Source of the DNA: Mobula hypostoma
Lineage: Eukaryota
Length of the DNA stretch: 64,000 nucleotides
Assembly (NCBI RefSeq): GCF_963921235.1
Contig: NC_086108.1
Span: 54,686,001-54,750,000, forward strand
Direction of reading: 5' to 3'
Of the stretch, positions 924 to 55,883 are shown one piece after another. The notes below the pieces were generated by a model. It worked only from the letters and a program-made list of their open reading frames with translations. It had not been told where the DNA came from and ran no database searches. Each line of letters opens with the position of its first letter. Position 1 is the stretch's first letter. The translations under genes and the position numbers were made by a program.

Positions 924-2518
924 GTAGTCATAGTCATAGTCATACTTTATTGATCCCAGGGGGAGATTGGTTTTCGTTACAGTTGCACCATAATAATAAA
1001 TAGTAATAGAACCATAAATAGTTAAATAGTAATATGTAAATTATGCCAGTAAATTATGAAATAAGTCCAGGACCAGCCTATCGACTCAGAGTGTCATACC
1101 CTCCAAGGGAGGAGTTGTAAAGTTTGATGGCCACAGGCAGGAATGACTTCCTATGACGCTCTGTGCTGCATCTCGGAGGAATGAGTCTCTGGCTGAATGT
1201 ACTCCTGTGCCCACCCAGTACATTATGTAGTGGATGGGAGACATTGACCAAGATGGCATGCAACTTAGACAGCATCCTCTTTTCAGACACCACCGTGAGA
1301 GAGTCCAGTTCCATCTCCACAACATCACTGGCCTTACGAATGAGTTTGTTGATTCTGTTGGTGTTTGCTACCCTCAGCCTGCTGCCCCAGCACGCAACAG
1401 CAAACATGATAGCACTGGCCACCACAGACTTGTAGAACATCCTCAGCATCGTCCGGTAGATGTTAAGGGACCTCAGTCTCCTCAGGAAATAGAGACAGCT
1501 CTGACCCTTCTTGGAGACAGCCTCAGTGTTCTTTGACCATGGTTATGGTGAGAAGGCGGGGGAGTGGGACTAAATAGGAGAATGGATCAGCTCATGATAA
1601 AATGGCGGAGCAGACTCGATGGGCCGAATAGCCTACCTCTGCTCCTTTGTCTTATGGACCAGTCTAGTTTATTGTCAATTCGTATCCCCAGGTATTTGTA
1701 ATCCTCCACCATATCCACACTGACCCCCTGGATGTAAACAGGGGTCACTGGTACCTTAGCTCTCCTCAGGTCTACCACCAGCTCCTTAGTCTTTTTCACA
1801 TTAAGCTGCAGATAATTCTGCTCACACCATGTGACAAAGTTTCCTACCGTAGCCCTGTACTCAACCTCATCTCCCTTGCTGATGCATCCAACTATGGCAG
1901 AGTCATCCGAAAACTTCTGAAGATGACAAGACTCTGTGCAGCAGTTGAAGTCCGAGGTGTAAATGGTGAAGAGAAAGGGAGACAAGACAGTCCCCTGTGG
2001 AGCCCCAGTGCTGCTGATCACCCTGTCGGACACACAGTGTTGCAAGCACACGTACTGTGGTCTGCCAGTCAGGTAATCAAGAATCCATGATACCAGGGAA
2101 GCATCCACCTGCATCGCTGTCAGCTTCTCCCCCAGCAGAGCAGGGCGGATGGTGTTGAACACACTGGAGAAGTCAAAAAACATGACCCTCACAGTGCTCG
2201 CTGTCTTGTCCAGGTGGGCATAGACATGGTTCAGCAGGTAGATGATGGCATCCTCAACTCCTAGTCGGGGCTGGTAAGCGAACTGGAGGGGATCTAAGTG
2301 TGGCCTGACCATAGGCCAGAGCAGCTCCAGAACAAGTCTCTCCAAGGTCTTCATGATATGGGAGGTCAATGCCACCGGTCTGTAGTCATTGAGGCCGCTG
2401 GGGTGCGGCGTCTTCAGCACAGGGACGAGGCAGGACGTCTTCCACAGCACAGGAACCCTCCGGAGCCTCAGGCTCAGGTTGAATACATGGCAAAGTACTC
2501 CACATAGCTGAGGGGCTA
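924..2518 (-). mobile_element. Rex1/Babar-clade LINE, 5'-truncated, near-intact RT
   Basis: ORFs 1587-2450 (NDYRPVALTS, GAPQGTVLSPFLF, FSDD) and 1078-1449. 3' end is AATAAA followed by a (TATGAC)n tail. Confidence 0.9.
1540..1656 (+). mobile_element. CR1 3'-end fragment inserted in the Rex1 ORF
   Basis: CR1-type 3' UTR (gcagactcgatgggccgaatagcct...cttatgg) with GACCA duplicated at 1535-1539 and 1657-1661. Removing it restores the frame DNKLDWSKNTEAVSKKGQS. Confidence 0.85.
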
Positions 2519-2700
2519 TTCTGTTACTGTGAATAGCTAAGCGAGTAAAAGATTACCTGATTTCCAAAAGTCATAAAGTTAAAGATGACACATTTCTTTA
2601 ATATTTTAAGCGAGATTACTTTTTTATTTCCATCTTTTACAGTTTCAAAATATCAAAAAAGGAAAAGGGCCTGAAGCAAAAGTTTGGGCACCTTGCATGG

Positions 2701-3727
2701 TCAGTACTTAGTAACACCCCCTTTGGCAAGTATCACAGCTTGTAATCGCTTTCTGTAGCCAGCTAAGAGTCTTTCAATTCTTGTTTGGGGGATTTTCGCC
2801 CATTCTTCTTTGCAAAAGGCTTCTAGTTCTGTGAGATTCTTGGACCGTCTTGCATGCACTGCTCTTTTGAGGTCTATCCACAGATTTTCAATGATGTTTA
2901 GTTTGGGGGTATGTGAGGGCCATGGCAAAACCTTCATCTTGCTGCTCTTGAGGTAGTCCATTGTGGATTTTGAGGTGTGTTTCGGATCGTTATCCTTTTA
3001 TAGAAGCCATCCTCTTTTCATCTTCAGCTTTTTTTTTTACAGACAGTGTGATGTTTGCTTCCAGAATTTGCTGGTATTTAATTGAACTCATTCTTCCCTC
3101 TACCAGTGAAATGTTCCCCGTCCCACTGGCTGCAACACAAGCCCAAAGCATGATTGATCCACCCCCATGCTTAACAGTTGGAGAGGTGTTCTTTTCATGA
3201 AATTCTGCACCCTTTTTTCTCCAAACATACCTTTGCTCATTGCGGTCAAAAAGTTCTATTTTAACTTCATCAGTCCACAGGATTTGTTTTCCAAATGCAT
3301 CAGGCTTGTTTAGATGTTCCTTTGCAAACTTCTGATGCTCAATTTTGTGGTGAGGATGCAGGAAAGGTTTTCTTCTGATGACTCTTCCATGAAGGTCATA
3401 TTTGTGCAGGTGTTGCTGCACAGTAGAACAGCGCACCACCACTCCAGAGTCTGCTAAGTCTTCCTGAAGGTCTTTTGCAGTCAAATGGGGTTTTTGATTT
3501 GCCTTTCTAGCAATCCTATGAGCAGTTCTCTCGAAAAGTTTTCTTGGTCTTGCAGACCTCAACTTGACCTCTACCGTTCCTGTTAACTGCCATTTCTTAA
3601 TTACATTACGAACTGAGGAATCGGCTACCTGAAAATGCTTTGCTATCTTCTTATAGCCTTCTCCTGCTTTGTGGGCATCATTTATTTTAATTTTCAGAAT
3701 GCTAGGCAGCTGCTTAGAGGAGTCCAT
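2701..3727 (-). pseudogene. Tc1 transposase, disrupted
   Basis: HTH region, WTDE motif, and DNDPKH...NIIE with 34 residues between D and E. Broken by a frameshift in the T/A run near 3030 and an in-frame TAA at 2998-3000. Confidence 0.92.
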
Positions 3728-4929
3728 GGCTTCTGATTGTTGGGAAAAGGTTTGAAGAGTCAGGGTATTTATAAAGCTTTGAAATTTGCATCACCTGGCC
3801 TTTCCTAACGATGACTGTGAACAAGCCATAGCCCTAACAAGCTAATTAAGGTCTGAGACCTTGGTAAAAGTTATCTGAGAGTTCAAATCTCTTGGGATGC
3901 CCAAACTTTTGCATGGTGCTCCTTTCCTTCTTTTCACTCTAAAATTGTACAAAACAGAAATAATACACTAATCTTACTTAAGATGTTGAAAAGAGTGTTT
4001 CATCTTTAACTTTATGACTTTTGGAGATCAGTTCATCTTCTACTCACTTAACTATTCACAGTAACAGAAATTTTGACCAGCGGTGCCCAAACTTTTGCAT
4101 GCCACTGTATAAGATGATGTAAAACGAACTGTGTCATTTACATAATTTGTACTTGCATTTAGAAACTATACTTACTTCAGAATAGGTTAATCGGTCATTG
4201 TAAATTGTTCTGCAATTTGGCTAGTGTTAAATAGGTGGGTTGCTGGGCATGCGACTCATCGAGCCGGAAAAGCCTGTATCTTTAAAAAAAAATAAAAGTT
4301 GGACAATTTAAACTCATGACCACCAGTATTTTCACTGGCTGAATTATTAAAGAAATTGTCTAATTTATAATAATGCTGGGAGTGTTCCCAAATTTGATCT
4401 TTATTTATATGGATTAATTATATCAATGAAACAGATGAGATTCACTCTGTACAAGTTGGGGAGGGGAATGACAATGACAGTCTCAGGCTCCATTTGAGCA
4501 GCTGGTATTGAAGTGTGATCAAACATGTGAAATTTGACTGATTTTTCTTGCTGTAAGTCTAGTAACGCTGTGGTTGCCCCGGGGCTAGGAGCAGTTAATT
4601 TATCGGGGTCTGATATTCAGGCCTGATAATCATCGCAGAGCACTGCAAAGACAATCCAATTACAGACAGGTATTTTGGTGAGGCAGAATTCATTTAAGAT
4701 TAGTAATGAAACTATTTAGAGAACCAATAATGAAATTGGGGAAATGCATTAAAGGAAATCTAATCATTTAAATGTTAGGAGTTCAGATCTCGATAAGAAA
4801 AATAAACATGTGAGAGGCATGGAGAGGCAGGAAGAACATCACTGGCTTCAGTCAGCCTAGTTGTAGAGCCTTGGAACGCAGACACAAAGGGCTGATGGGT
4901 TAAACCAACCCTTCAATAGGTTTGGCAAT

Positions 4930-6842
4930 TGCTTTCCTGTTTACACACTCCTCAGCACACCAGCCCAGTGTTCCCTTAGCACCAACACCTCCCCTCCTCC
5001 CCCCCCTCCAATTCAACACATGGAAGAACAACTAAGGCTACCATGGTCTACAATCCCTCCTCCCCCTGCACCTACCATCCACACCTCCACATACCAATTG
5101 CCATTGTTTGGATCTTCACCTCCCCCAGCCCCCCAGTCGTCATGGACTTGCCTTCACTACTGAGCAGGTGAAAAGGACTCTGGGGAAACTCAGACACAGC
5201 AAAGCATCAGCACCAGACGGTGTGAAGGAGAGTGCTGAGCAACTGTGGTGAGTTCTCCAGTGCATTTTCAGTCGGAGTCTCAGCCTGGAAAGGGTCCCGA
5301 CTGTGTGGAAAACATCATGTGTGATTCCTGTGCCCAAGAAGGACAGAGCAAAAGTCTTGAATGACTACCGTCACTGGCCCTGGGCTCACTCATCCAGGAG
5401 TCCCTAGAGAGGCTGGTCCTGGCTCATCTCTGCCCCCTGGTCAGGTCAGCCCTCCATTCCCTGCAATTTGCCTACCAGGACCACACTGGAGTTGATGATG
5501 CTGTCACGTACCCTCTGAACAGAGCCTACTCACATTTGGATAAGCAGGGCAGGACTGTGAGGATCATCTTTTTTGATTTCTCAAGTGCCTTCAAGACCAT
5601 ACTGCCCTCACTGCTGGGGGAAAACTCCATTCAATGCCGGTTGGCACTTCCATTGTATCCTGGATAATGGACTACCTGACTGGCAGACCACAGTTTGTGT
5701 GTCATACATGGCTATAAGCAGCACTGGGGCCACACAGGAGATTGTATTGGCTCCCTTCCTGTTTACCAGTATACCCCGGACTTCAGATACAACACTGAGT
5801 CATGTCATCTGCAGAAATTCTCTGATGACTCAGCAATATTTGGAGGTATAAAGGGAGGATGGAAGGATGAATACAGAGTCCTGGTGGAGGACTTTGTCAC
5901 ATGGTCATCTGCAGCTCAATATCAGTAAGATAAAAGGGATTTTGTTGGACTTTAGAAAGACTAAGTCTGCACTGCTCCCTGTTACTGATAGTGAGGACGT
6001 GGATGTGGTGAGGACCTACAAGTACTTGGGAGTGCACCTGGATGACAGACTTGAGTGGAGCACCAACAGAGAGGCTGTGTACAAGAAGGGCCAGAGTTAC
6101 TCCGCTTCCTGAGGAGGCCTTGGTCCTTTGGAGTATGTAGGCCCCTCCTTCACATGTTCTACCAGTCTGCTGTCATCAGTACAATCTTTTATGCAGTGGT
6201 GTGCTGGAGCAATGGTATTAACACAGATGATACCAATAAACTGATTAGAAAGGCTGGCTCTGTTATAGGAATCAAATTAGACACACTAGAGGCTGTGGTA
6301 GAACACAGGGCCCTCTGGAAAGTCCTGGCAATTCTGGACAATGCTTTTTACCTTCTATGCCACCTTGGCTGAACAGAGGAACACATTCAGTAATAGACCA
6401 AGACAACTGCGCTGCTCCAAAGAGTGCTATATTCTTACCCTCGGCCACTAAGCTCTATAATGAGTCAAACTATAGCCAGGAAAGTGATGACCCCCTCCTG
6501 TTAGATTATTATTAACCTCTGTTTAGTTCCATTTACCACACTCCGCTATCGCAGACAACCTGTGTAATACTGAGCAATTCTACCATCACTTCTTATCTGG
6601 ACAGTTTGAATGTTGACCCATGATCATATAATATTACAGTAATTCTTGCACTACCATCTTATAAATGTGAACTTGTAAATCTTGTACATCTTATTTTTTT
6701 AGGTAACAATTATCTTTTTTTCTTTACTTTTCTTACTTTCCATCTATTTGTGTATCACAGATATTTGTATACTGTATCTGTGTACGTGTAATGCTACTGT
6801 GACACTGCAATTTCCTTTTGGATCAATAAAGTATCTATCTGT
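4930..6842 (+). mobile_element. Rex1/Babar-clade LINE, decayed
   Basis: Frameshifted RT (CHLQKFSDDSAI, YKYLGVHLDDRLEW). 3' end ggatcAATAAAgtatctatct. The 5' boundary is approximate. Confidence 0.85.
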
Positions 6843-7199
6843 TTACAGTATGTGGGGAGCCCAATGTGAAACAACGTGGATTGAAGTCTCACAAACATAT
6901 ACAATAAATTGTATAAAATGTGGATACTAACTCCAATCGTGTTCCTCCTCTCCCGAATGTACTGATTTGTGTGGCAGTATTGTTTCACAGCCAATTATAC
7001 TTTTCTAGTACTTCATACAATAGCCTTTGCAATTGAATGTGAATAGTGAAAGGTTTAGCAAAACTAAGAATCTGTCGTACTTTAACAAATATGCTGGTGA
7101 GCATTACATGTGATTTTCCTGACTAAATATTCAAATACTTGATTTATAGCATATGCTATTAAAATGGCCATGAAATTTCTGTTTATGCAATTGTTGCTG

Positions 7200-8505
7200 G
7201 CTATAGACTGCCCCAAGCAGTAGCTAATATGTAGGACAGAGGCACAATGGGGCCTATATGAGGATTAAGAGGAAGTGTGGGTGATTTTAATCTTCATGTA
7301 CATTGGACATACCAAATTAAAAATAAATGTCTTGAGAATATCTTCAGTCACTGTGTCAGTGATGGTTGCTAAGAACAACACATCATGGAGCCAGTCAGGC
7401 AACACATTATTTTAGACCTTGCTATGTGCAGGGAGGATTAATTCATTGTCTTTTATAGAGGAACTTCTGCAAAAAAAAAGTATTATAGTGCGTTAGAATT
7501 TCACGGCCTGAAAATAAGAAACATATGTCCAAATCTGGTGACTTAAATGGAAGTAAGAGTAATTACAAAGAAGTGAAGGTGCTGCTGGCTAAAATGGAAC
7601 TGGAAGATAAAAAGTAGATAAGCAGCGGAAGATACTTAAGGAAGTGCTTCATAATTCATCACCTGGTGCGCTCCATTTAGAAACAGAGACACAGTAAGAA
7701 AGATTGGAAAATGTTAGAAACCAGCAAAGAATAATAAAAAAAACACGAAAATAGAACAAGAGAGAACTATGATATTATTAAGAGCTTCTACATGGACATA
7801 AAATAGAAGAAAGTATCTTAAGTCCCCAGGTAGATGAAAGTGGGAGATTAATCAATGGGAAATAAGGCAATGACAGAGACCACAAGCACATCTGCCATCT
7901 TCCTAAAAGACATTTACAGCCATTCTAACACAGAAAACTATGTCAGAAACATGAGGAAACTATGTCAGAAAATAAGATACTAGGCCAGTGGGCTAGACAT
8001 CTGCTATTTGGAAAGTGACTGAATCTACAATTCAAGGTAACAAAATTTAGAATAAAGCGATAGCATGGTATTATGAAAGGAAATCATGTTAGGCAAAGTT
8101 CTTTGAGGTTATAACAAGCAGGTTGGATAAAGCAGAACCAGGTGATTGAATGTATTCAGACTTGCAGAAGGCATTTGATAAGATGTCACACAAAGAAGCA
8201 CTGCATAATGTAAGCCTCTTGGAACTGTTGGTAATATATGAGCATGGTAAGGATTGGCTAACTAAGGGTAATGAATTTTGTTCAGGCTGATAGTCTGCAG
8301 AGTTATCTGTCTCAGGGAGTGCTGAGGACTGAACCTTTGAACACATTCAAGGCAGAGAATCAGATTTTGTCTATATGAGAGTCAAGTATTAAGAGAACAG
8401 GCAGGGAAGCGAATCAGAGGCTAAACTCAGCCAGGATCTTGTTATATAATGGGGCAAGCATGAGGGAAATTTGGCCAGATCTTGCTCCCACTTCTAATGT
8501 TCTTA
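7200..8505 (+). mobile_element. Old, deleted CR1-type LINE
   Basis: Degenerate endonuclease and RT remnants (gacttgcagaaggcatttgataag, DxQKAFDK) and a CR1-like 3' UTR. Boundaries approximate. Confidence 0.6.
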
Positions 8506-9049
8506 AACATTCACAGTTCAACAGTTTTCTGGTAGCAATATTACTTATCTTGTGTTTTCATTTGACCTTTAGCAGAAGTTGAAAACAATGGAATCAGAAC
8601 ATATTCGAAAGAAACAAGGATTACAATGTCTCTCCTCTTTAATGTAGATGGAAACATACTTACAATCAACGAAGTACAACAGAAACATATAACAATCATT
8701 TTCATAATTACAGATTTGATCTTGTTCATTCTGAATTATAAGCTCAGTTGATGCTGGAACATAACCACTGAATGGTAACATATCTTTTCAAGATGAGTCA
8801 GCCCTCTCTTACAACATCAGTCATAGATTCACACAGCACAGAAAGAGGCCCTGCAGCCCACGGGATCCATCAATCGCCCATTTCAGTTCAGGTAAGACAT
8901 TTCTGATTCCAGCAAATGCTCACGTGGTCCACTTGCTGACAGGAACATACAGCATCTCATGCGATATTGGCAATGTTTCTTCAAATAACATTCATTCACA
9001 TGAACCACCAGTGCAATTGGTCCTGGGCAATCATTAACACATTTCTATA

Positions 9050-11780
9050 ATTAGCTTCTTGTACAAATATAGTATTCTCTACTTCGAAATGGTGATCACA
9101 GCTCCGGCATCGTGTTGTTCCTTCATCTTTATGTGTTTGGACCCGCAGTAGAACTAAGATCTGGCTGCATCAAATCCGAATGCATATTGAAGTATTTGTC
9201 GATGGTGAACTCAGCAACCCTCTGTTCTGTGGTTGAAAGCGGTGTATTCGATGCTGGATGAAGACATGTTCAATTGCCTCAATTTCATTTGCTTTCATCT
9301 TTTTCAGTCCATCTTCCACTCTTGATGCCAGCTGTTTGAAGCTGGGTGATGAGGTGCAAATGCATTCATCCTATCCCTTTCCTTCTGCACAATGCAGCAA
9401 GTCCAGCAACAGTGAACTCAGTTCCACTGTCTGACTTTGGAAGACCACGTGGAGTGAAGCTCACTGTGAAGTCTTCGTTTGAGATGTACAAGTTCCATAG
9501 GAACTGCTTCTGTCCACTTTGAATATGATCCATTACAGTAAGGATCCTTTTCCCATTAATAGATCTGCACAATTCACTTACGTCCAGAGACAAGTGTTGA
9601 GAGGAGCTATAGGTGGATTTCTAGCCAATTGGTGATGTAGTGGCATCCACAAAAGATTGCGAGGCGAGTTGTCCCAGGTTCAAATCCGACTGGCTCCTTG
9701 CATGCTTTCCATCCATGCCGGGTTGAGCGTTGAGCTAGCAACTCGGCCTCAGAAAAAACAAAGAAATGGTAAAGAAACAGCAGGGTTGCTGCCCGATGAG
9801 CCACAAGGCATGGAAAGGAACAACAACTATAGGTAGATTGCTGCTAAGCTCGTGTCATGGCTCAAGTTCAGTCCCAGTATCTCCCTGTTACTCAGCCACT
9901 CCTGGCCACCAAATAAATGTGACAAGTTGCCTAATGTATCAAACACCCCACGGAACTGCTTCGGAATAACCTCTCTTCTTTGCAGCAGAACAACAGCTCT
10001 GGATTCCCAAAGAACAACAGCATTCGGGATGATGAGTTGGTGGTTTGCCCTGTAATGTTGTCCACAGATGTGTCACCTTCTCATTCTCCTTCCTATCCAT
10101 GTTGTATACCTGCAACAGGATAAGAGGCATGCTTTGTCATGGTAGCAAGCTGTTGATTTGTGATTTGTGCATTGCAGCAATGACTGAAGCTCAGCCTGCA
10201 ATAGTATTGCACATGAGGATACCATTAACTAACTCTGCATCCACATCTGATTGTCTGCTCCTGTAACTCCAGGATACAGTCAGTGCTAATGGCTACATCA
10301 GTGCTCTGGCATCAGCCAGCCAAGGAACCCTCTTGAATTTAACATGAAAATTGAATGCTTCAGACAGGCAACCGCTTGTGGAAATTCACCACATGTCCAT
10401 GTTAGATGGCTGTGTAATAGATTTTAAGAAATCTTGCAGGATATCCAAAAGAAGTCATCAAAAGGAAAATGTCCAGTCACAGATTCATGCTGGACAGCTT
10501 TTTTAATGAACTGACTTTTCTTAAAAACACATCTCGGTGGATAAAAATGAATCAAATTTTGTTTCTTACAAAAGTGAAGGGGAGGATGGAAACTGAAGAA
10601 AGGCAAAGCACTGGCAGTCCCAGGCAGCAAAATGTTCTTTACTCTATGTTTGTTTCTTCTCAGCTTTTGGGAGAGATCTTGGTGCACAACCAATTCATGG
10701 TTCATCTCCCATTCTCCAAACTGTATGACAAAACTGCACCACTGCAGTCAGCACGACTTTACTGAAAAATAATGAACAAACACTGAGCTCAGCAGCAACT
10801 GTCTTAACTCTTGGAACTTGCATGCTGTTTTGTGATTCAGCAGTTCCTATAGAGGACCGGGCATGGAACATGAATATGACATAAGATGTCCATGGTAATT
10901 GCTAATTCTTAAATCAGTCAGGTTGATGGAACTAGGTTCACCCAAATTTGCTGTAACCTTGTCCTCAGCTTGGTGGAGTCCATTAGCATCCATTGTTTGC
11001 TCAGTTAGAGCACTGCTGGAGCAGCAAAAGTATGTCTTTCTTCAATCATCCCCTTGCTTCTCAGAATCAGTTTACACCTTCCAGCTTCTCCTTGTGTTTA
11101 TTCTCTATCTTTGTAGACCTCAAGATGTCATCTGTTACCTATGACATCTGGCAGACTTTGGATGTAGCTGCCCAATGTCCTCTGGAAACTGCTTGGAGCT
11201 GACGCTGTCCTGAAAGGAAGTTTGTTACATTATAGAAGCCCAAGGTGAGTATAAACTGTGGAATCCTACCTTGAGTCTTAGTCCAACCTGTGACATGCCA
11301 AAGATTGTGAATCTCTGTCATCCGACCACCTGCATGAACAATCATCAGCCAGATGTAAAGGGTATTGGCATACCTGCATATGCATGTTCTTGTCTGTGAG
11401 TCTCTGCACTATACTGCTCAATAGACTCCATCCTGCTAGGTTGCCACTTGATACCACAATTAAGGCAGGGAGTCATTTTCTTCGCTGTTATATTGCAGTT
11501 GCCATGACTACTTTCCATCAGAAAGATCTTCCTTTTCCCTGAAGATGCAGAGGAGCTGGGCCATGCTTTGGTAACATCCTGAACCCTGTCTGGCTAACAT
11601 TACACGTTCTTTGTCCACTGGACTGTTACATCTCAATTGCCTGGACAATATCAATTGCTGCTTGAAATTCACTTTTGTCTTGCCAAGCAGCTTCATTTGA
11701 ATGTGCACATTTAAAATTGCATAACTTATACAGTATTCAGCAATCCATTGCAAATCCTGCAACAGTTTCATTTGGCAGCT
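9050..11780 (-). mobile_element. Decayed Gypsy/Ty3 LTR-retrotransposon pol (RT followed by integrase)
   Basis: Minus-strand fragments: KLPFRTASAPSSFQRTL..DDIL (RT, ~11120-11230), FIWWPGVAE (~9890-9920), and HSKWTEAVPM, RGLPKSDSGTEFT, HPASN (integrase core, ~9330-9560). Many stops and frameshifts; LTRs not recognised. Confidence 0.8.
9623..9826 (+). mobile_element. tRNA-headed SINE with RTE-like body and (AAC)n tail
   Basis: B box GGTTCAAATCC. TSD of ~16 bp, ctataggt(g/a)gatt(t/g)ct, at 9607-9622 and 9827-9842. Confidence 0.8.
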
Positions 11781-34559: not shown

Positions 34560-34942
34560 CTGCAGAACCTGTCCATGAAGCCACACATTTTCTCGCAGCA
34601 GCACTATTTTGAAAGGCAGACAGGTTTGCAGGCAAGCTTCAGGCAACTCCTGGCTGGAGATGACCGTTTTCGTCAGGCAACTGGCAGGGAGCCAGTCGGA
34701 AGCCCGGAGAAGGACCTGTTAAAGGAGGGAGGCAGCTGGGGAGCTTTGCAAGTTTGTTACTGGGGTTGTCGGAGTTTTGCCTTTTCGATTTCTGCCCCTT
34801 TCTAGGAAACAAAACCGATTCATTCGCTACTTTGGTTCCTTTTTTTTTCAGGAGTCAGTTCATTGAACAAGGTCATGACTTACTCTCTCCCCTTTGTCTG
34901 TGAATGAGCATTCTTATTTGGTGACTTTTGTTTGAGTGCCCC
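34560..34942 (+). promoter_or_regulatory. Probable promoter/5' UTR of DNAJC6 exon 1
   Basis: Repeat-free stretch, richer in GC and CpG than its flanks, immediately upstream of the ATG. The TSS cannot be placed from sequence alone. Confidence 0.5.
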
Positions 34943-35189
34943 ATGAGCCTTCTTGGAAACTATCGCAAGAAGACAAATTATGACGGGTACGAATCGTTGC
35001 ATTTGGTGGACACGGGTCCCGGCGATTTGGATAGTTGGCAGCAAGCTGGCGATGCAGAGCAGACGGTGAACCCGGCCCCTGCCCCAGTCCCAGCCCCAGC
35101 CTCAGCCCTCGCTCCCGAGCCGACAGGAGCGATAGCAGCCAGTGGCCTGATCCCGCAGACAGCCCGCTACAGCACCATGGACAGGTCAG
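34943..35189 (+). CDS. DNAJC6: Auxilin coding exon 1 (long N-terminal isoform): MSLLGNYRKKTNYDGYESLHLVD...ARYSTMDRS-G
   Basis: ATG at 34943. The N-terminus closely matches the recalled human DNAJC6 long isoform (MSLLGSYRKKTSNDGYESLQLVD...STMDSSG). The phase-1 donor G|GTAACT at 35189/35190 is compatible with the exon 2 acceptor. Confidence 0.93.
35168..35188 (+). promoter_or_regulatory. RE1/NRSE (REST binding site) inside coding exon 1
   Basis: TACAGCACCATGGACAGGTCA contains the canonical core CAGCACC-nn-GGACAG exactly, with 2-nt spacing. The host gene is neuron-enriched. Confidence 0.7.
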
Positions 35190-37367
35190 GTAACTGCTCC
35201 TCACTCGTCAACGCCATGTGCCATTCAGTAACACGAGCTCAGCTCCTTATCTTAAATCCCGTGCTTGCAAAGAGAATTAATCATTTTCACTTGTATTTCT
35301 TAAATGTATGCAGCAATTCGTACTTTCTTGGCCCTTGTAACATTACCGAGCACTGTTAGTCGTTGAAATATAAATAATACCTCTAAATTTTTCTGTCGCA
35401 CTGTTGGTAATGAAACGCTATGTGCTTTAAACCATTTTGTACTATATGTTTTATATTACTTCCGCTAGATTAGTGCATTCTTTAATTTTTCAAATACGTA
35501 GGAAGAGAGATGTTGGTGCAGCAGTACGTAAATCATGTACAGTAGCTTCCGTGCTTTCTTTCAGGCTTCAAATTGCAAGTACAGAATTTAATCGCTAAAT
35601 TCTTACAGAAGGCGTTGGGGGAGGGGCACTTGGCGAATGCATCCTGGATAGCAGCAGTATGGCGTCCTTCTGGTGCACGCTGTGTTCACCTCCAGACTCC
35701 CACTTCTTACCCACGATCTTACCCGCTTGACTTGTTCTGTTGAATTTTGGTTTACGTGTACTTATGGCTTTGACTCTTTTTTAACATTTGATTCATGATC
35801 AATTTTATGTTAATGAACTGAACGCTGTTGTTAACTAATTTGTGTGGTGGTGTCATATAAAGGATGGTCCAGTCTCTTTGAAGTGTGCACATTGGCTGCT
35901 GGGAATACTGTCAGCCGTTCGACCTTTTGCTATTGTCCAGACACTGAAGCAAATAATGTAATTGCTAATAATGTAATACATTTTATTGCATATAAAGCAG
36001 AGTCAAATTGATCATTTTGATTAATTTCTATGCAGGATAAGTTGTTGGCATGTTTCTTTCTTTGTCTGCTAATAATTATCTAGTTTCCTAAATGTTGCTC
36101 TAAGAATCTAAAACCTGTCTTATACTGTGCTTTCCAGAATTAAGTCACACATTGCTGTCTGCTTGATCTTTCCTATATTGTTTGTTCTTTAGAAATAAGT
36201 GATACTACAGGATCATCCTCATCTACACATCCTTGCCGTTGAAGTGAATACTGCATGTAATGCTTTAAAATTTGTCTCCAATTCCTATCTCGTCTTCCAC
36301 TGTTTCTGCTGTTTCATTTTATTTGTGTTCTTTTACTTGTAATCCTGAATTTGAAATAAAATTCACAATACTGCCAAGTGCAATTAATAAAACTTATTTG
36401 TAAGTTTGATAGTTAGTAGGGTTCTACTGGTTTGGCACAGTGGTGCAACTACCAGAGCTGCTGCCCCAGCTTCAGTGCACCAGATTAATGAGAGATCTCC
36501 TGTGCTGTTAGTACGGAATTTTTACATCCTCCCAAAGACTTCTTCAGTGCTATTGTGTCCTCCCACATCCCTATGATGGAAAGATAAAGGTTGCCCCTAG
36601 TCTGTAGGTAAGTGGTAGTATCTGTGATTAGCGTGGGGGTGGGGTTAGTTGAGAAGAATGCAGGGAGAATAGAGTGTGATTAGTGTAAATGTGTGTTTCC
36701 TGGTTGGCGTGGGCCGGATGGGTGTACTTATTTGGAGATGGAGCACAGAAGCAGGCCTGTGCCACCCAGTTACACCCGTGTGACCAATTAACCTGTACAT
36801 CCTTGGAATGTGGGGCAAAAGTCACTTACAGACAGTGGGAGAATGTACAAACTGCTTAAGACAGTGGGTGAATGGAGACACTGGAATAGTATTACGCTGA
36901 CTGTACTTTGAAGAGCTAGTTTTCATTCTGTATAATTCTATGGCTCTGTTAATTGTACATTACATACTTTAAAAAGAAATATTGTTAAACACATGGGAGT
37001 CAACCTATCTTCAAAGAAAGCATTTGCATTTCTGTTTTATCTTTCCACTTGCTTACATGACAATGGTTCCAAAAAATCCTCAAGAAGCCCAACACAATCC
37101 AGAGCAAAGCAGAAGGATTAATTGGAACTGTGTCCACCAAGCTAAGTGTTGATTCCTTTCACAGCTGAGCCACAGTAGCTGCAGAGTGCACCATCTGCAG
37201 AACACTTTGCAGTTTCCTGCCTCGGCACTCTGGCAGCACTTTGTAAACCCACAAATTTTGTCAACACAGACTGGGTGGCAGGTGTGTGGGAACATTAGTG
37301 TTGGCTGCCCTCTTCGGTTGTGCAAACTCATGCTGTTATTGTCACTGGGTCTAAGTTCTGGTCTTCA

Positions 37368-50176: not shown

Positions 50177-50315
50177 GTACCTCTTCTCAAGATGTGGAAC
50201 CCACTTTTGGGAGTGGACTGCTCGATATGGTAAAAGGAGGAGCTGGAAGACTCTTCAGCAACTTAAAGGACAACCTGAAAGATACCTCCTCAAAGGTCAT
50301 ACAATCTGTAGCCAG
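50177..50315 (+). CDS. DNAJC6: Auxilin exon 2: (G)TSSQDVEPTFGSGLLDMVKGGAGRLFSNLKDNLKDTSSKVIQSVA(S)
   Basis: Acceptor ttctcAG|, donor |GTAAAT, 139 nt, phase 1 to phase 2. DMVKGGAGRLFSNLKDNLKD is the auxilin signature. Confidence 0.96.
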
Positions 50316-55645: not shown

Positions 55646-55734
55646 ATTGAAATATGTGAAGGAGAAATACTGGTTTAATTCAATCTATTAAGAAGATTGT
55701 TATCAATCTGACAATAGTTTTCACTTTCTCTTAG

Positions 55735-55883
55735 TGATAACCTATCCTGCTGAAGGAGTGGAGTTGAGTTTCAAGAATCAGATTGATGATGTCCGATCGT
55801 TTTTGGATTCCCGGCACTTGGATCATTATACAATCTTTAATTTATCTCAGAAATCTTACAGAAGTGCCAAGTTTCACAACAGA
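55735..55883 (+). CDS. DNAJC6: Auxilin exon 4: VITYPAEGVELSFKNQIDDVRSFLDSRHLDHYTIFNLSQKSYRSAKFHNR
   Basis: Acceptor ctttctcttAG|, donor |GTAAGT, 149 nt, phase 1 to phase 0. The SFLDSRHLDHYT motif is auxilin-type. Confidence 0.96.

What the first reader, a model, noticed from the sequence alone, without database searches (positions are those of the whole stretch)
35168..35195. Exonic REST/RE1 silencer overlapping codons STMD, an alternative start and the splice donor of neuronal auxilin
Seen: the last ~22 nt of exon 1 read TACAGCACCATGGACAGGTCA, an exact RE1 core (CAGCACC-nn-GGACAG). The same bases encode Y-S-T-M-D-R-S, form a strong Kozak context (accATGg) and abut the donor. Established: DNAJC6 is neuron-enriched, its paralog GAK is ubiquitous, and REST represses neuronal genes through RE1 sites. 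Recalled but not checked: the human protein also keeps STMD here after a divergent linker. Inference: a dual-coding element conserved across jawed vertebrates may underlie the neuronal restriction of auxilin.
Basis: partly seen in the sequence, partly recalled or inferred. Interest (0 to 1): 0.75.

Follow-up and report, generated by a model that had tools for sequence, protein, structure and literature searches.

The report
Ancient REST silencer inside auxilin's codons
The last codons of the first coding exon of the Parkinson's-disease gene auxilin (DNAJC6) in this ray spell the same REST-repressor site as in a bony fish and in mouse, where REST is already recorded as bound, so the site likely helps keep the gene quiet outside the nervous system and likely explains why these six amino acids barely change.

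Summary
An exact RE1 core (CAGCACC-AT-GGACAG, 35170-35184) lies in the last codons of coding exon 1 of a ray DNAJC6/auxilin gene, which ends at 35189 and splices to 50177. A lone core means little here (315 in the genome, 137-201 with wrong spacers, 73 on one transposon), but this one is conserved: the 13 core bases are identical in ray, a teleost and mouse, while 13 of 18 synonymous codons in the exon's conserved N-terminus differ between ray and teleost. In 131 distinct orthologous peptides the conserved island starts where the motif starts. The mouse site was catalogued as REST-bound in 2008; a human REST peak lies in a DNAJC6 exon in 16 of 16 cell types, weakest in neurons. De-repression after REST loss is seen in mouse myoblasts but not in the lists of two other studies. 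The 'alternative start' is not supported: mouse, voles and naked mole-rat lost the Met and kept the site, and the RE1 consensus itself contains ACCATGG. Exonic RE1s are a known kind; the ray-to-mouse conservation was not found in print. Binding in the ray is inferred.

The parts
35168..35188 (+). 21-bp RE1/NRSE frame (core CAGCACC-AT-GGACAG at 35170-35184), overlapping codons Y-S-T-M-D-R-S
   Evidence: 17 of 21 to the consensus quoted; core identical in teleost L032 and mouse
34943..35189 (+). coding part of DNAJC6/auxilin exon 1 (82 codons + 1 nt, phase-1 intron)
   Evidence: (98% to Mobula birostris auxilin)
34708..34942 (+). probable 5' UTR of exon 1, with two short upstream ORFs (ATG 34875, 34904); 5' end is a weak hint only
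   Evidence: contigs of runs X1 and X6 begin at 34708 and 34709; ATG list
34943..35011 (+). conserved N-terminal peptide (codons 1-23) used as the synonymous-site control
35177..35179 (+). in-frame ATG (Met79) in accATGg context; coincides with the RE1 spacer; not supported as a conserved start
35190..35195 (+). splice donor GTAACT of intron 1
50177..50315 (+). DNAJC6 exon 2
55728..55883 (+). later DNAJC6 coding exon (start of the PTEN-like region)
   Evidence: 98% identity to P0002, G000:C50:54741728-54741883
34701..35700 (.). mildly CpG-rich stretch over exon 1 and the start of intron 1 (CpG observed/expected 0.55-1.2)

Best explanation
This is a canonical RE1 site written into the last codons of auxilin's first coding exon, with the same core in ray, teleost and mouse; REST likely binds it in the ray as it is recorded to do in mouse, likely dampens the nearby promoter in REST-rich non-neural and progenitor cells, and selection on the DNA site likely fixes the residues S-T-M-D-S/R. 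Shown: the motif, the exon structure, identity of the core in three lineages, REST occupancy of the mouse sequence. Inferred: that the human peak summit is on these codons; binding in the ray; that this site, some 460 nt downstream of the likely start, is the one through which REST loss raises Dnajc6; recruitment of Sin3/CoREST-HDAC complexes (established REST biology, recalled). It is likely one layer of auxilin's neural bias, not the whole cause. The strong Kozak context is likely a by-product of the motif.
For: DNA: teleost locus L032, fetched by the N-terminal peptide and not by the motif, has the identical 15-mer, the same TCAG and the same donor position, while 13 of 18 identical-residue degenerate codons in codons 1-24 differ (Fisher p 0.042 for 3 codons, 0.017 with the last Ser). 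Mouse RE1 mus8001:171 in Dnajc6, GCCAGCACCACGGACAGCTCA, score 0.9246 against a 0.90 cut-off, reads A-S-T-T-D-S-S like the vole proteins; an NS5 ChIP-PET cluster overlaps it, annotated '1st exon'. Human: peak summits chr1:65,775,605-619, 'exon', in 16 of 16 cell types, score 1,087-11,409 in 15 non-neuronal types and 103 in neurons. Proteins: 131 distinct exon-1 peptides of 38-99 aa have S129/G2, T131, M128/T3, D130/E1, S125/R6; the commonest residue is at 44% one position before, and there 0 of 131 are residues whose codons must end in A/G, against 31-63 of 131 at two to four positions further up. S/R, S/G and M/T are each one base from AGC or ATG. REST-knockout mouse myoblasts: Dnajc6 log_FC 2.44, adjusted p 0.042; a promoter-near ATAC peak opens in knockout stem cells, FDR 3e-4. 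Full consensus with the right spacer occurs 8 times in this genome, 0 with a 3-bp spacer.
Against: No binding data for the ray, and a REST gene in this genome was not tested. The ray site has 4 mismatches to the 21-bp consensus, one more than the teleost's, and no matrix score was computed. Only three lineages at DNA level, one pair in the test. Dnajc6 is absent from the DN:REST expression data set of ESC and NSC and from all 11 supplementary files of a human REST-knockout study; in the muscle study it appears among expression lists only for myoblasts, at low counts (WT 0, 2, 15; KO 49, 20, 47). A second REST peak lies in a human intron (8 rows seen), so de-repression need not run through this site. 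S-to-G in a spadefoot toad and duck would break the left half-site, D-to-E in coelacanth may alter the right one (codons not seen). The site lies next to the donor, where splicing also constrains sequence. Searches were seeded with STMD-bearing queries and 68 of 188 hits were not listed.
Confidence: 0.85

Rival explanations
1. The island is kept by splicing: an exonic splicing enhancer or donor-flanking element, with the RE1 match incidental.
For: It lies within 22 nt of the donor, and TCAG-GTAA is shared by ray and teleost. Synonymous constraint near exon ends is well known (recalled).
Against: The free and fixed positions follow the RE1 pattern: spacer AT or AC tolerated, flanks free, fixed block starting at the C of CAGCACC. 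REST occupancy is recorded on the mouse sequence. It may still account for the last 4-5 exon bases.
Confidence: 0.06
2. The peptide S-T-M-D-S is kept for the protein's sake (for example an acidic-kinase site S-x-x-D/E), and the codons happen to form an RE1.
For: D-to-E and M-to-T keep S-x-x-D/E; the following exon-2 residues are moderately conserved too.
Against: It does not explain identical synonymous bases in ray, teleost and mouse: given the peptide, uniform codon choice yields the core with probability 0.0035. S-to-G and S-to-R changes point to AGN codons rather than to chemistry. Mammalian isoforms exist without this exon (P0158, P0161).
Confidence: 0.04
3. The block is a conserved alternative translation start (accATGg) giving an auxilin without the first 78 residues.
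For: Perfect Kozak context, in frame; the ray's first ATG has a weak context, cccATGa; Met kept in 128 of 131 peptides.
Against: Met lost in mouse, two voles and naked mole-rat with the RE1 intact, probably twice since squirrel and gundi keep Met (rodent phylogeny recalled). The consensus RE1 itself contains ACCATGG. Codons 1-23 are strongly conserved, so Met1 is used. Two out-of-frame ATGs lie between. Occasional use by leaky scanning in the ray is not excluded.
Confidence: 0.03
4. REST binds but the site has no effect on this gene's expression that selection sees; or in the ray it has decayed into a weak site.
For: No de-repression listed in two of three studies checked; weak RE1 motifs do not silence in reporter assays (PMC9903721 passages); ray site has G at position 18.
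Against: Identity of synonymous bases over some 450 million years (date recalled) is hard to get without function; positional conservation of RE1s is rare (12 of 85 homologous frog-human regions); de-repression in myoblasts.
Confidence: 0.08

Closest known systems
Mouse Dnajc6 RE1 mus8001:171 (Johnson et al. 2008, PMC2573930, Datasets S1 and S4)
   Same: Orthologous position in coding exon 1, same 13 core bases, same TCA after it; listed with ChIP-chip values for three cell lines and a ChIP-PET cluster in neural stem cells.
   Different: Mouse spacer is AC (Thr), ray AT (Met); the data set lists the site without noting codon overlap or deep conservation, as far as the rows and passages I saw show.
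Human DNAJC6 exonic REST peak (Rockowitz et al. 2014, PMC4055426, Table S2)
   Same: Strong peak in a DNAJC6 exon in 16 of 16 cell types, lowest in neurons.
   Different: No motif sequence in the rows seen; its placing on the STMD codons is inferred.
NRSEs in the coding variable exons of mammalian clustered protocadherins (PMC2926608, PMC8096226)
   Same: RE1 inside protein-coding first exons of neural genes, bound by REST in vitro.
   Different: Described as likely mammalian innovations, many copies, inside folded-domain sequence; the auxilin site is single, shared from ray to mouse, at the end of a freely varying linker.
Dual-use codons ('duons', Stergachis et al. 2013; recalled, paper not held)
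   Same: Transcription-factor site constraining codon choice.
   Different: General genome-wide idea in human; not checked here.

Membership tests
Canonical RE1/NRSE | Two half-sites CAGCACC and GGACAG with a 2-bp spacer | tested here: met
Canonical RE1/NRSE | Strict 17-bp degenerate consensus NTYAGMRCCNNRGMSAG | tested here: not met
   Position 2 is A, not T (consensus). The mouse site (C) and teleost site (G) fail the same way, yet the mouse site is occupied, so this consensus is too strict to define the family.
Canonical RE1/NRSE | Matrix score above the binding or silencing threshold | tested here: inconclusive
   No matrix on hand. 17 of 21 consensus matches in ray, 18 in teleost, 16 in mouse; the mouse site scores 0.9246 against 0.90.
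Canonical RE1/NRSE | REST occupancy in vivo | not testable with these tools
   Not in the ray. Published for the mouse orthologue and for a human DNAJC6 exon.
Canonical RE1/NRSE | Repression lost when REST or the site is removed | tested here: inconclusive
   Up in REST-knockout myoblasts; not listed in two other studies; no site-specific test found.
Dual-coding exonic element | Lies in translated, spliced coding sequence | tested here: met
Dual-coding exonic element | Synonymous constraint beyond the rest of the exon | tested here: met
   3 of 3 core codons identical against 5 of 18 control codons, ray vs teleost, p 0.042; mouse core also identical. One pair only.
Conserved alternative start codon | ATG kept in all lineages that keep the element | tested here: not met
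   Thr in mouse, two voles, naked mole-rat
DNAJC6/auxilin-1 gene | PTEN-like C2 and J domains, no N-terminal kinase, auxilin N-terminus | tested here: met
   Exon 1 is 98% identical to the start of P0002, which has PTEN_C2 and DnaJ (the latter just under the curated cut-off) and no kinase hit; exons 2 and a later one found in the window.
Transposon-borne RE1 | Site lies in a dispersed repeat | tested here: not met
   Exon 1 has one match in the genome and no likeness to 30 other core-bearing loci.

The most novel reading that the evidence does not exclude
A single REST site has dictated six residues of auxilin since the last common ancestor of sharks and mammals: it came with the new first exon that replaced the kinase of the GAK-like ancestor, it is the main switch that confines this isoform to REST-poor neural cells, and synonymous human variants in these codons are regulatory alleles of a Parkinson's-disease gene.
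Probability: 0.3. Interest if true: 0.55.

Novelty: new member of a known kind. Interest (0 to 1): 0.38.

Why it matters
RE1 sites turn over fast (12 of 85 homologous frog-human regions keep one), so a site unchanged from ray to mouse is a rare marker of the ancestral REST network, and a clean case of DNA recognition shaping protein sequence: the linker around it varies from 38 to 99 residues while six residues stay put, and rodents swapped Met for Thr without touching the core. It names a 21-bp target for testing how auxilin, a recessive parkinsonism gene, is restricted relative to GAK, and flags synonymous variants there. It is not a new mechanism, and binding at the mouse site has been in a public table since 2008.

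Tried and rejected
The genome search's own reversed-pattern control (8 against 315) was rejected: the reversed word contains a CpG; wrong-spacer controls (137, of which 16 in one tandem array, and 201) were used instead, and PMC9903721 reports that among atypical spacers only 8-9 bp silence. Run search: no holder is on record as RNA; four runs guessed to be RNA were laid. Within-elasmobranch DNA is too close to test constraint: in run X6 all 19 differences lie at or before 35143, none in 35144-35192, which is weak; for X5 13 of 16 differences were listed, and for X7 rows were cut. The Xenopus screen's 5 supplementary files hold no dnajc6 row, as expected from its strict consensus. An anchor tying hg19 coordinates to exon-1 cDNA positions was not obtained. 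An upstream alternative coding exon was not found in the window by a recalled short motif, and the loose 5' end of run X5 has no match in the window. Supplements of PMC1557810 and PMC8215754 could not be read; PMC3967546 / Science 1243490 and PMC1581430 are not held. Earlier findings of the scan: nothing. No structure prediction was run: the question is at DNA level.

Full report
What is there. The window comes from a 3.48-Gb genome. An ATG at 34943 opens 82 codons that are 98% identical to the start of Mobula birostris auxilin, so the animal is a close ray; that protein has PTEN_C2 and DnaJ matches and no kinase. The exon ends at 35189, the donor GTAACT follows, exon 2 is at 50177-50315 and a later exon at 55728-55883. 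Contigs from 4 of 4 runs laid (kind only guessed as RNA) leave the genome at the donor and continue with exon-2 letters. Two of them begin at 34708 and 34709, a weak hint of the transcript start, which would put the motif some 460 nt downstream. The core CAGCACC-AT-GGACAG is at 35170-35184.

Is it more than chance? The core occurs 315 times in this genome, against 137 and 201 with 1- and 3-bp spacers, and 73 of the 315 sit in one transposon family. A lone core is therefore about as likely to be noise as signal. But the background rate is only 2-3e-5 per 490-nt exon, and the longer consensus occurs 8 times with the right spacer and 0 times with a 3-bp spacer, a modest sign that REST-type sites are selected in this lineage. 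The exon is single-copy and unlike 30 other core-bearing loci.

Conservation, protein level. Three searches and one cluster look-up gave 171 proteins (11 of 11, the best 120 of 188, 116 of 116, 18 listed members). Seven without the auxilin N-terminus (leptin receptors and other isoforms) were dropped; the other 164 all matched the search expression and collapse to 131 distinct exon-1 peptides of 38-99 aa. The last six residues are S129/G2, T131, M128/T3, D130/E1, S125/R6, S126/A3/P2; the Thr count is tied to the expression used, but no protein failed it. One position earlier the commonest residue is at 44%, yet none of 131 is K, E, Q, M or W, whose codons cannot end in the motif's first C. The changes seen are single-base steps from AGC (S to G, S to R) or ATG (M to T). 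Related species are not independent, and the queries carried STMD, so these counts are indicative. The human protein was not among the hits; Rhinopithecus and Microcebus read RASTMDSS.

Conservation, DNA level. A metagenome contig fetched through the N-terminal peptide holds a teleost exon 1 (by likeness to percomorph peptides). It has the identical 15-mer, TCAG and donor, while the upstream linker does not align and 13 of 18 identical-residue degenerate codons in the conserved N-terminus differ from the ray's. Fisher p is 0.042 for the three core codons, 0.017 with the last Ser. The third lineage comes from a paper: Dataset S1 of PMC2573930 lists a mouse RE1 in Dnajc6, GCCAGCACCACGGACAGCTCA, which reads A-S-T-T-D-S-S, as in two vole proteins. 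All 13 core bases agree in ray, teleost and mouse.

Binding and effect, from published data. The mouse row gives values for E14, NS5 and NIH3T3 whose first numbers (0, 4e-7, 2e-4) I read as P values; the sub-headers were not seen. A 9-tag NS5 ChIP-PET cluster overlaps the site and is annotated '1st exon'; the 18-tag ESC cluster is mapped about 280 bp upstream of it. In human, Table S2 of PMC4055426 (30 of 33 DNAJC6 rows seen) has one peak per cell type, 16 of 16, with summits at chr1:65,775,605-619 labelled 'exon', scoring 1,087-11,409 in 15 non-neuronal types and 103 in neurons (scores of different data sets are not strictly comparable). The table implies an exon starting between 65,775,173 and 65,775,221, so the summit is about 385-445 nt into it, which fits a 5' UTR of some 200-260 nt plus about 180 coding bases; my recollection that the RefSeq exon ends near 65,775,620 agrees but comes from no call. 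In REST-knockout mouse myoblasts Dnajc6 rises (log_FC 2.44, adjusted p 0.042, low counts) and a promoter-near ATAC peak opens in knockout stem cells. Against this, the gene is absent from the DN:REST data set for ESC and NSC and from 11 supplementary files of a human knockout study, and a second intronic REST peak exists in human. No experiment on the site itself was found.

How it most likely works. REST binds the exonic site on the DNA and represses the promoter a few hundred bases upstream where REST is abundant; in REST-poor neural cells the brake is off and activators decide the level. Selection on the contacted bases fixes the codons, which the flexible linker tolerates. This is probably one layer of control: mammals have a further start about 42 kb upstream, and a review reports more RNA in oligodendrocytes than in neurons and names GAK as the ubiquitous paralogue. 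A 66%-identical paralogue on C12, probably GAK (name inferred), has no exact core within 1 Mb among the C12 rows; this is weak. The alternative-start idea fails its test: rodents lost the Met, likely twice, each time gaining the common AC spacer, and the consensus itself contains ACCATGG. The ray's first ATG has a weak context, so occasional leaky use is not excluded.

Comparison and novelty. RE1s in coding exons are known: 20 of 25 human and 19 of 35 mouse protocadherin NRSEs are in coding sequence and tested ones bind REST. The Dnajc6 site is in a 2008 table. What I did not find in print is its ray-to-mouse conservation or its reading as a dual-coding element: searches DNAJC6+RE1+REST (4 papers), auxilin+REST+NRSF (1), DNAJC6+'REST target'+ChIP-seq (0), DNAJC6+NRSF (1); the one recurring review does not link the two in the three passages held (only its first 300,000 characters are held), the other three were seen as listings only. 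The library lacks most subscription papers, and unseen supplements may bear on this.

Papers, what I saw: PMC2573930 passages and supplement rows; PMC4055426 passages and supplement rows; PMC12343973 passages and supplement rows (one file unsearchable); PMC11015551 supplement search and file list only; PMC4430910 passages and supplement search; PMC2926608, PMC8096226, PMC9903721, PMC4499139, PMC13229842, PMC8215754 passages; PMC13230680 passages and part 1 of section 5; PMC1557810 title and abstract start only; Stergachis 2013 recalled.

Verdict. Real, conserved, very probably a functional exonic RE1; a new orthologous member of a known kind, with the deep conservation as the fresh part. Interest 0.38.

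Noticed in passing
L035:344-3827, L036 (arms 2008-2021 and 5476-5489), L003, L009, L010, L017, L019, L023, L029; 73 places in G000: A 3.5-kb hAT-type DNA transposon (14-bp terminal inverted repeats in one copy, copies 89-94% alike, hAT dimerisation domain in one ORF) carries a near-consensus RE1 about 460 nt inside one end; 73 copies keep an exact 25-letter pattern. It supplies nearly a quarter of the genome's exact cores: a possible transposon-driven spread of REST sites in a ray, like that reported for mammals, or a REST-silenced transposon.
   Followed up: partly
L004, L005, L013, L016, L021, L024, L026, L027: A second, older repeat group (66-81% alike over 150-700 bases) also carries exact cores, with non-consensus flanks; 15 of the first 30 genomic cores are thus repeat-borne.
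   Followed up: no
window 34943-35011: The first 23 residues (MSLLG.Y.KK...DGYESL.LVD) are near-invariant from ray to mammals with free synonymous sites, so they are under protein-level selection; they contain a YxxL word of the kind that binds clathrin adaptors (recalled). No function was looked up.
   Followed up: no
exon 1-2 junction in orthologues: About 30 of 131 peptides, all from ray-finned fish as far as named, run STMDSS straight into D/E-M/V-D/E, skipping some five residues: likely an alternative acceptor in exon 2.
   Followed up: no
window 34842: The contig of run X5 has 35 unmatched letters before 34842, with no match in the window: possibly an upstream exon or a divergent 5' end in that species. 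A pyrimidine run followed by AG lies at 34840-34851.
   Followed up: partly
window 34875 and 34904: Two short upstream ORFs (10 and 6 codons) precede the weak-context main ATG.
   Followed up: no
window 2700-3790 (- strand) and many intronic and upstream stretches: A Tc1-like transposase remnant and numerous LINE-type reverse-transcriptase fragments, recognised by eye from the translations (labels recalled).
   Followed up: no
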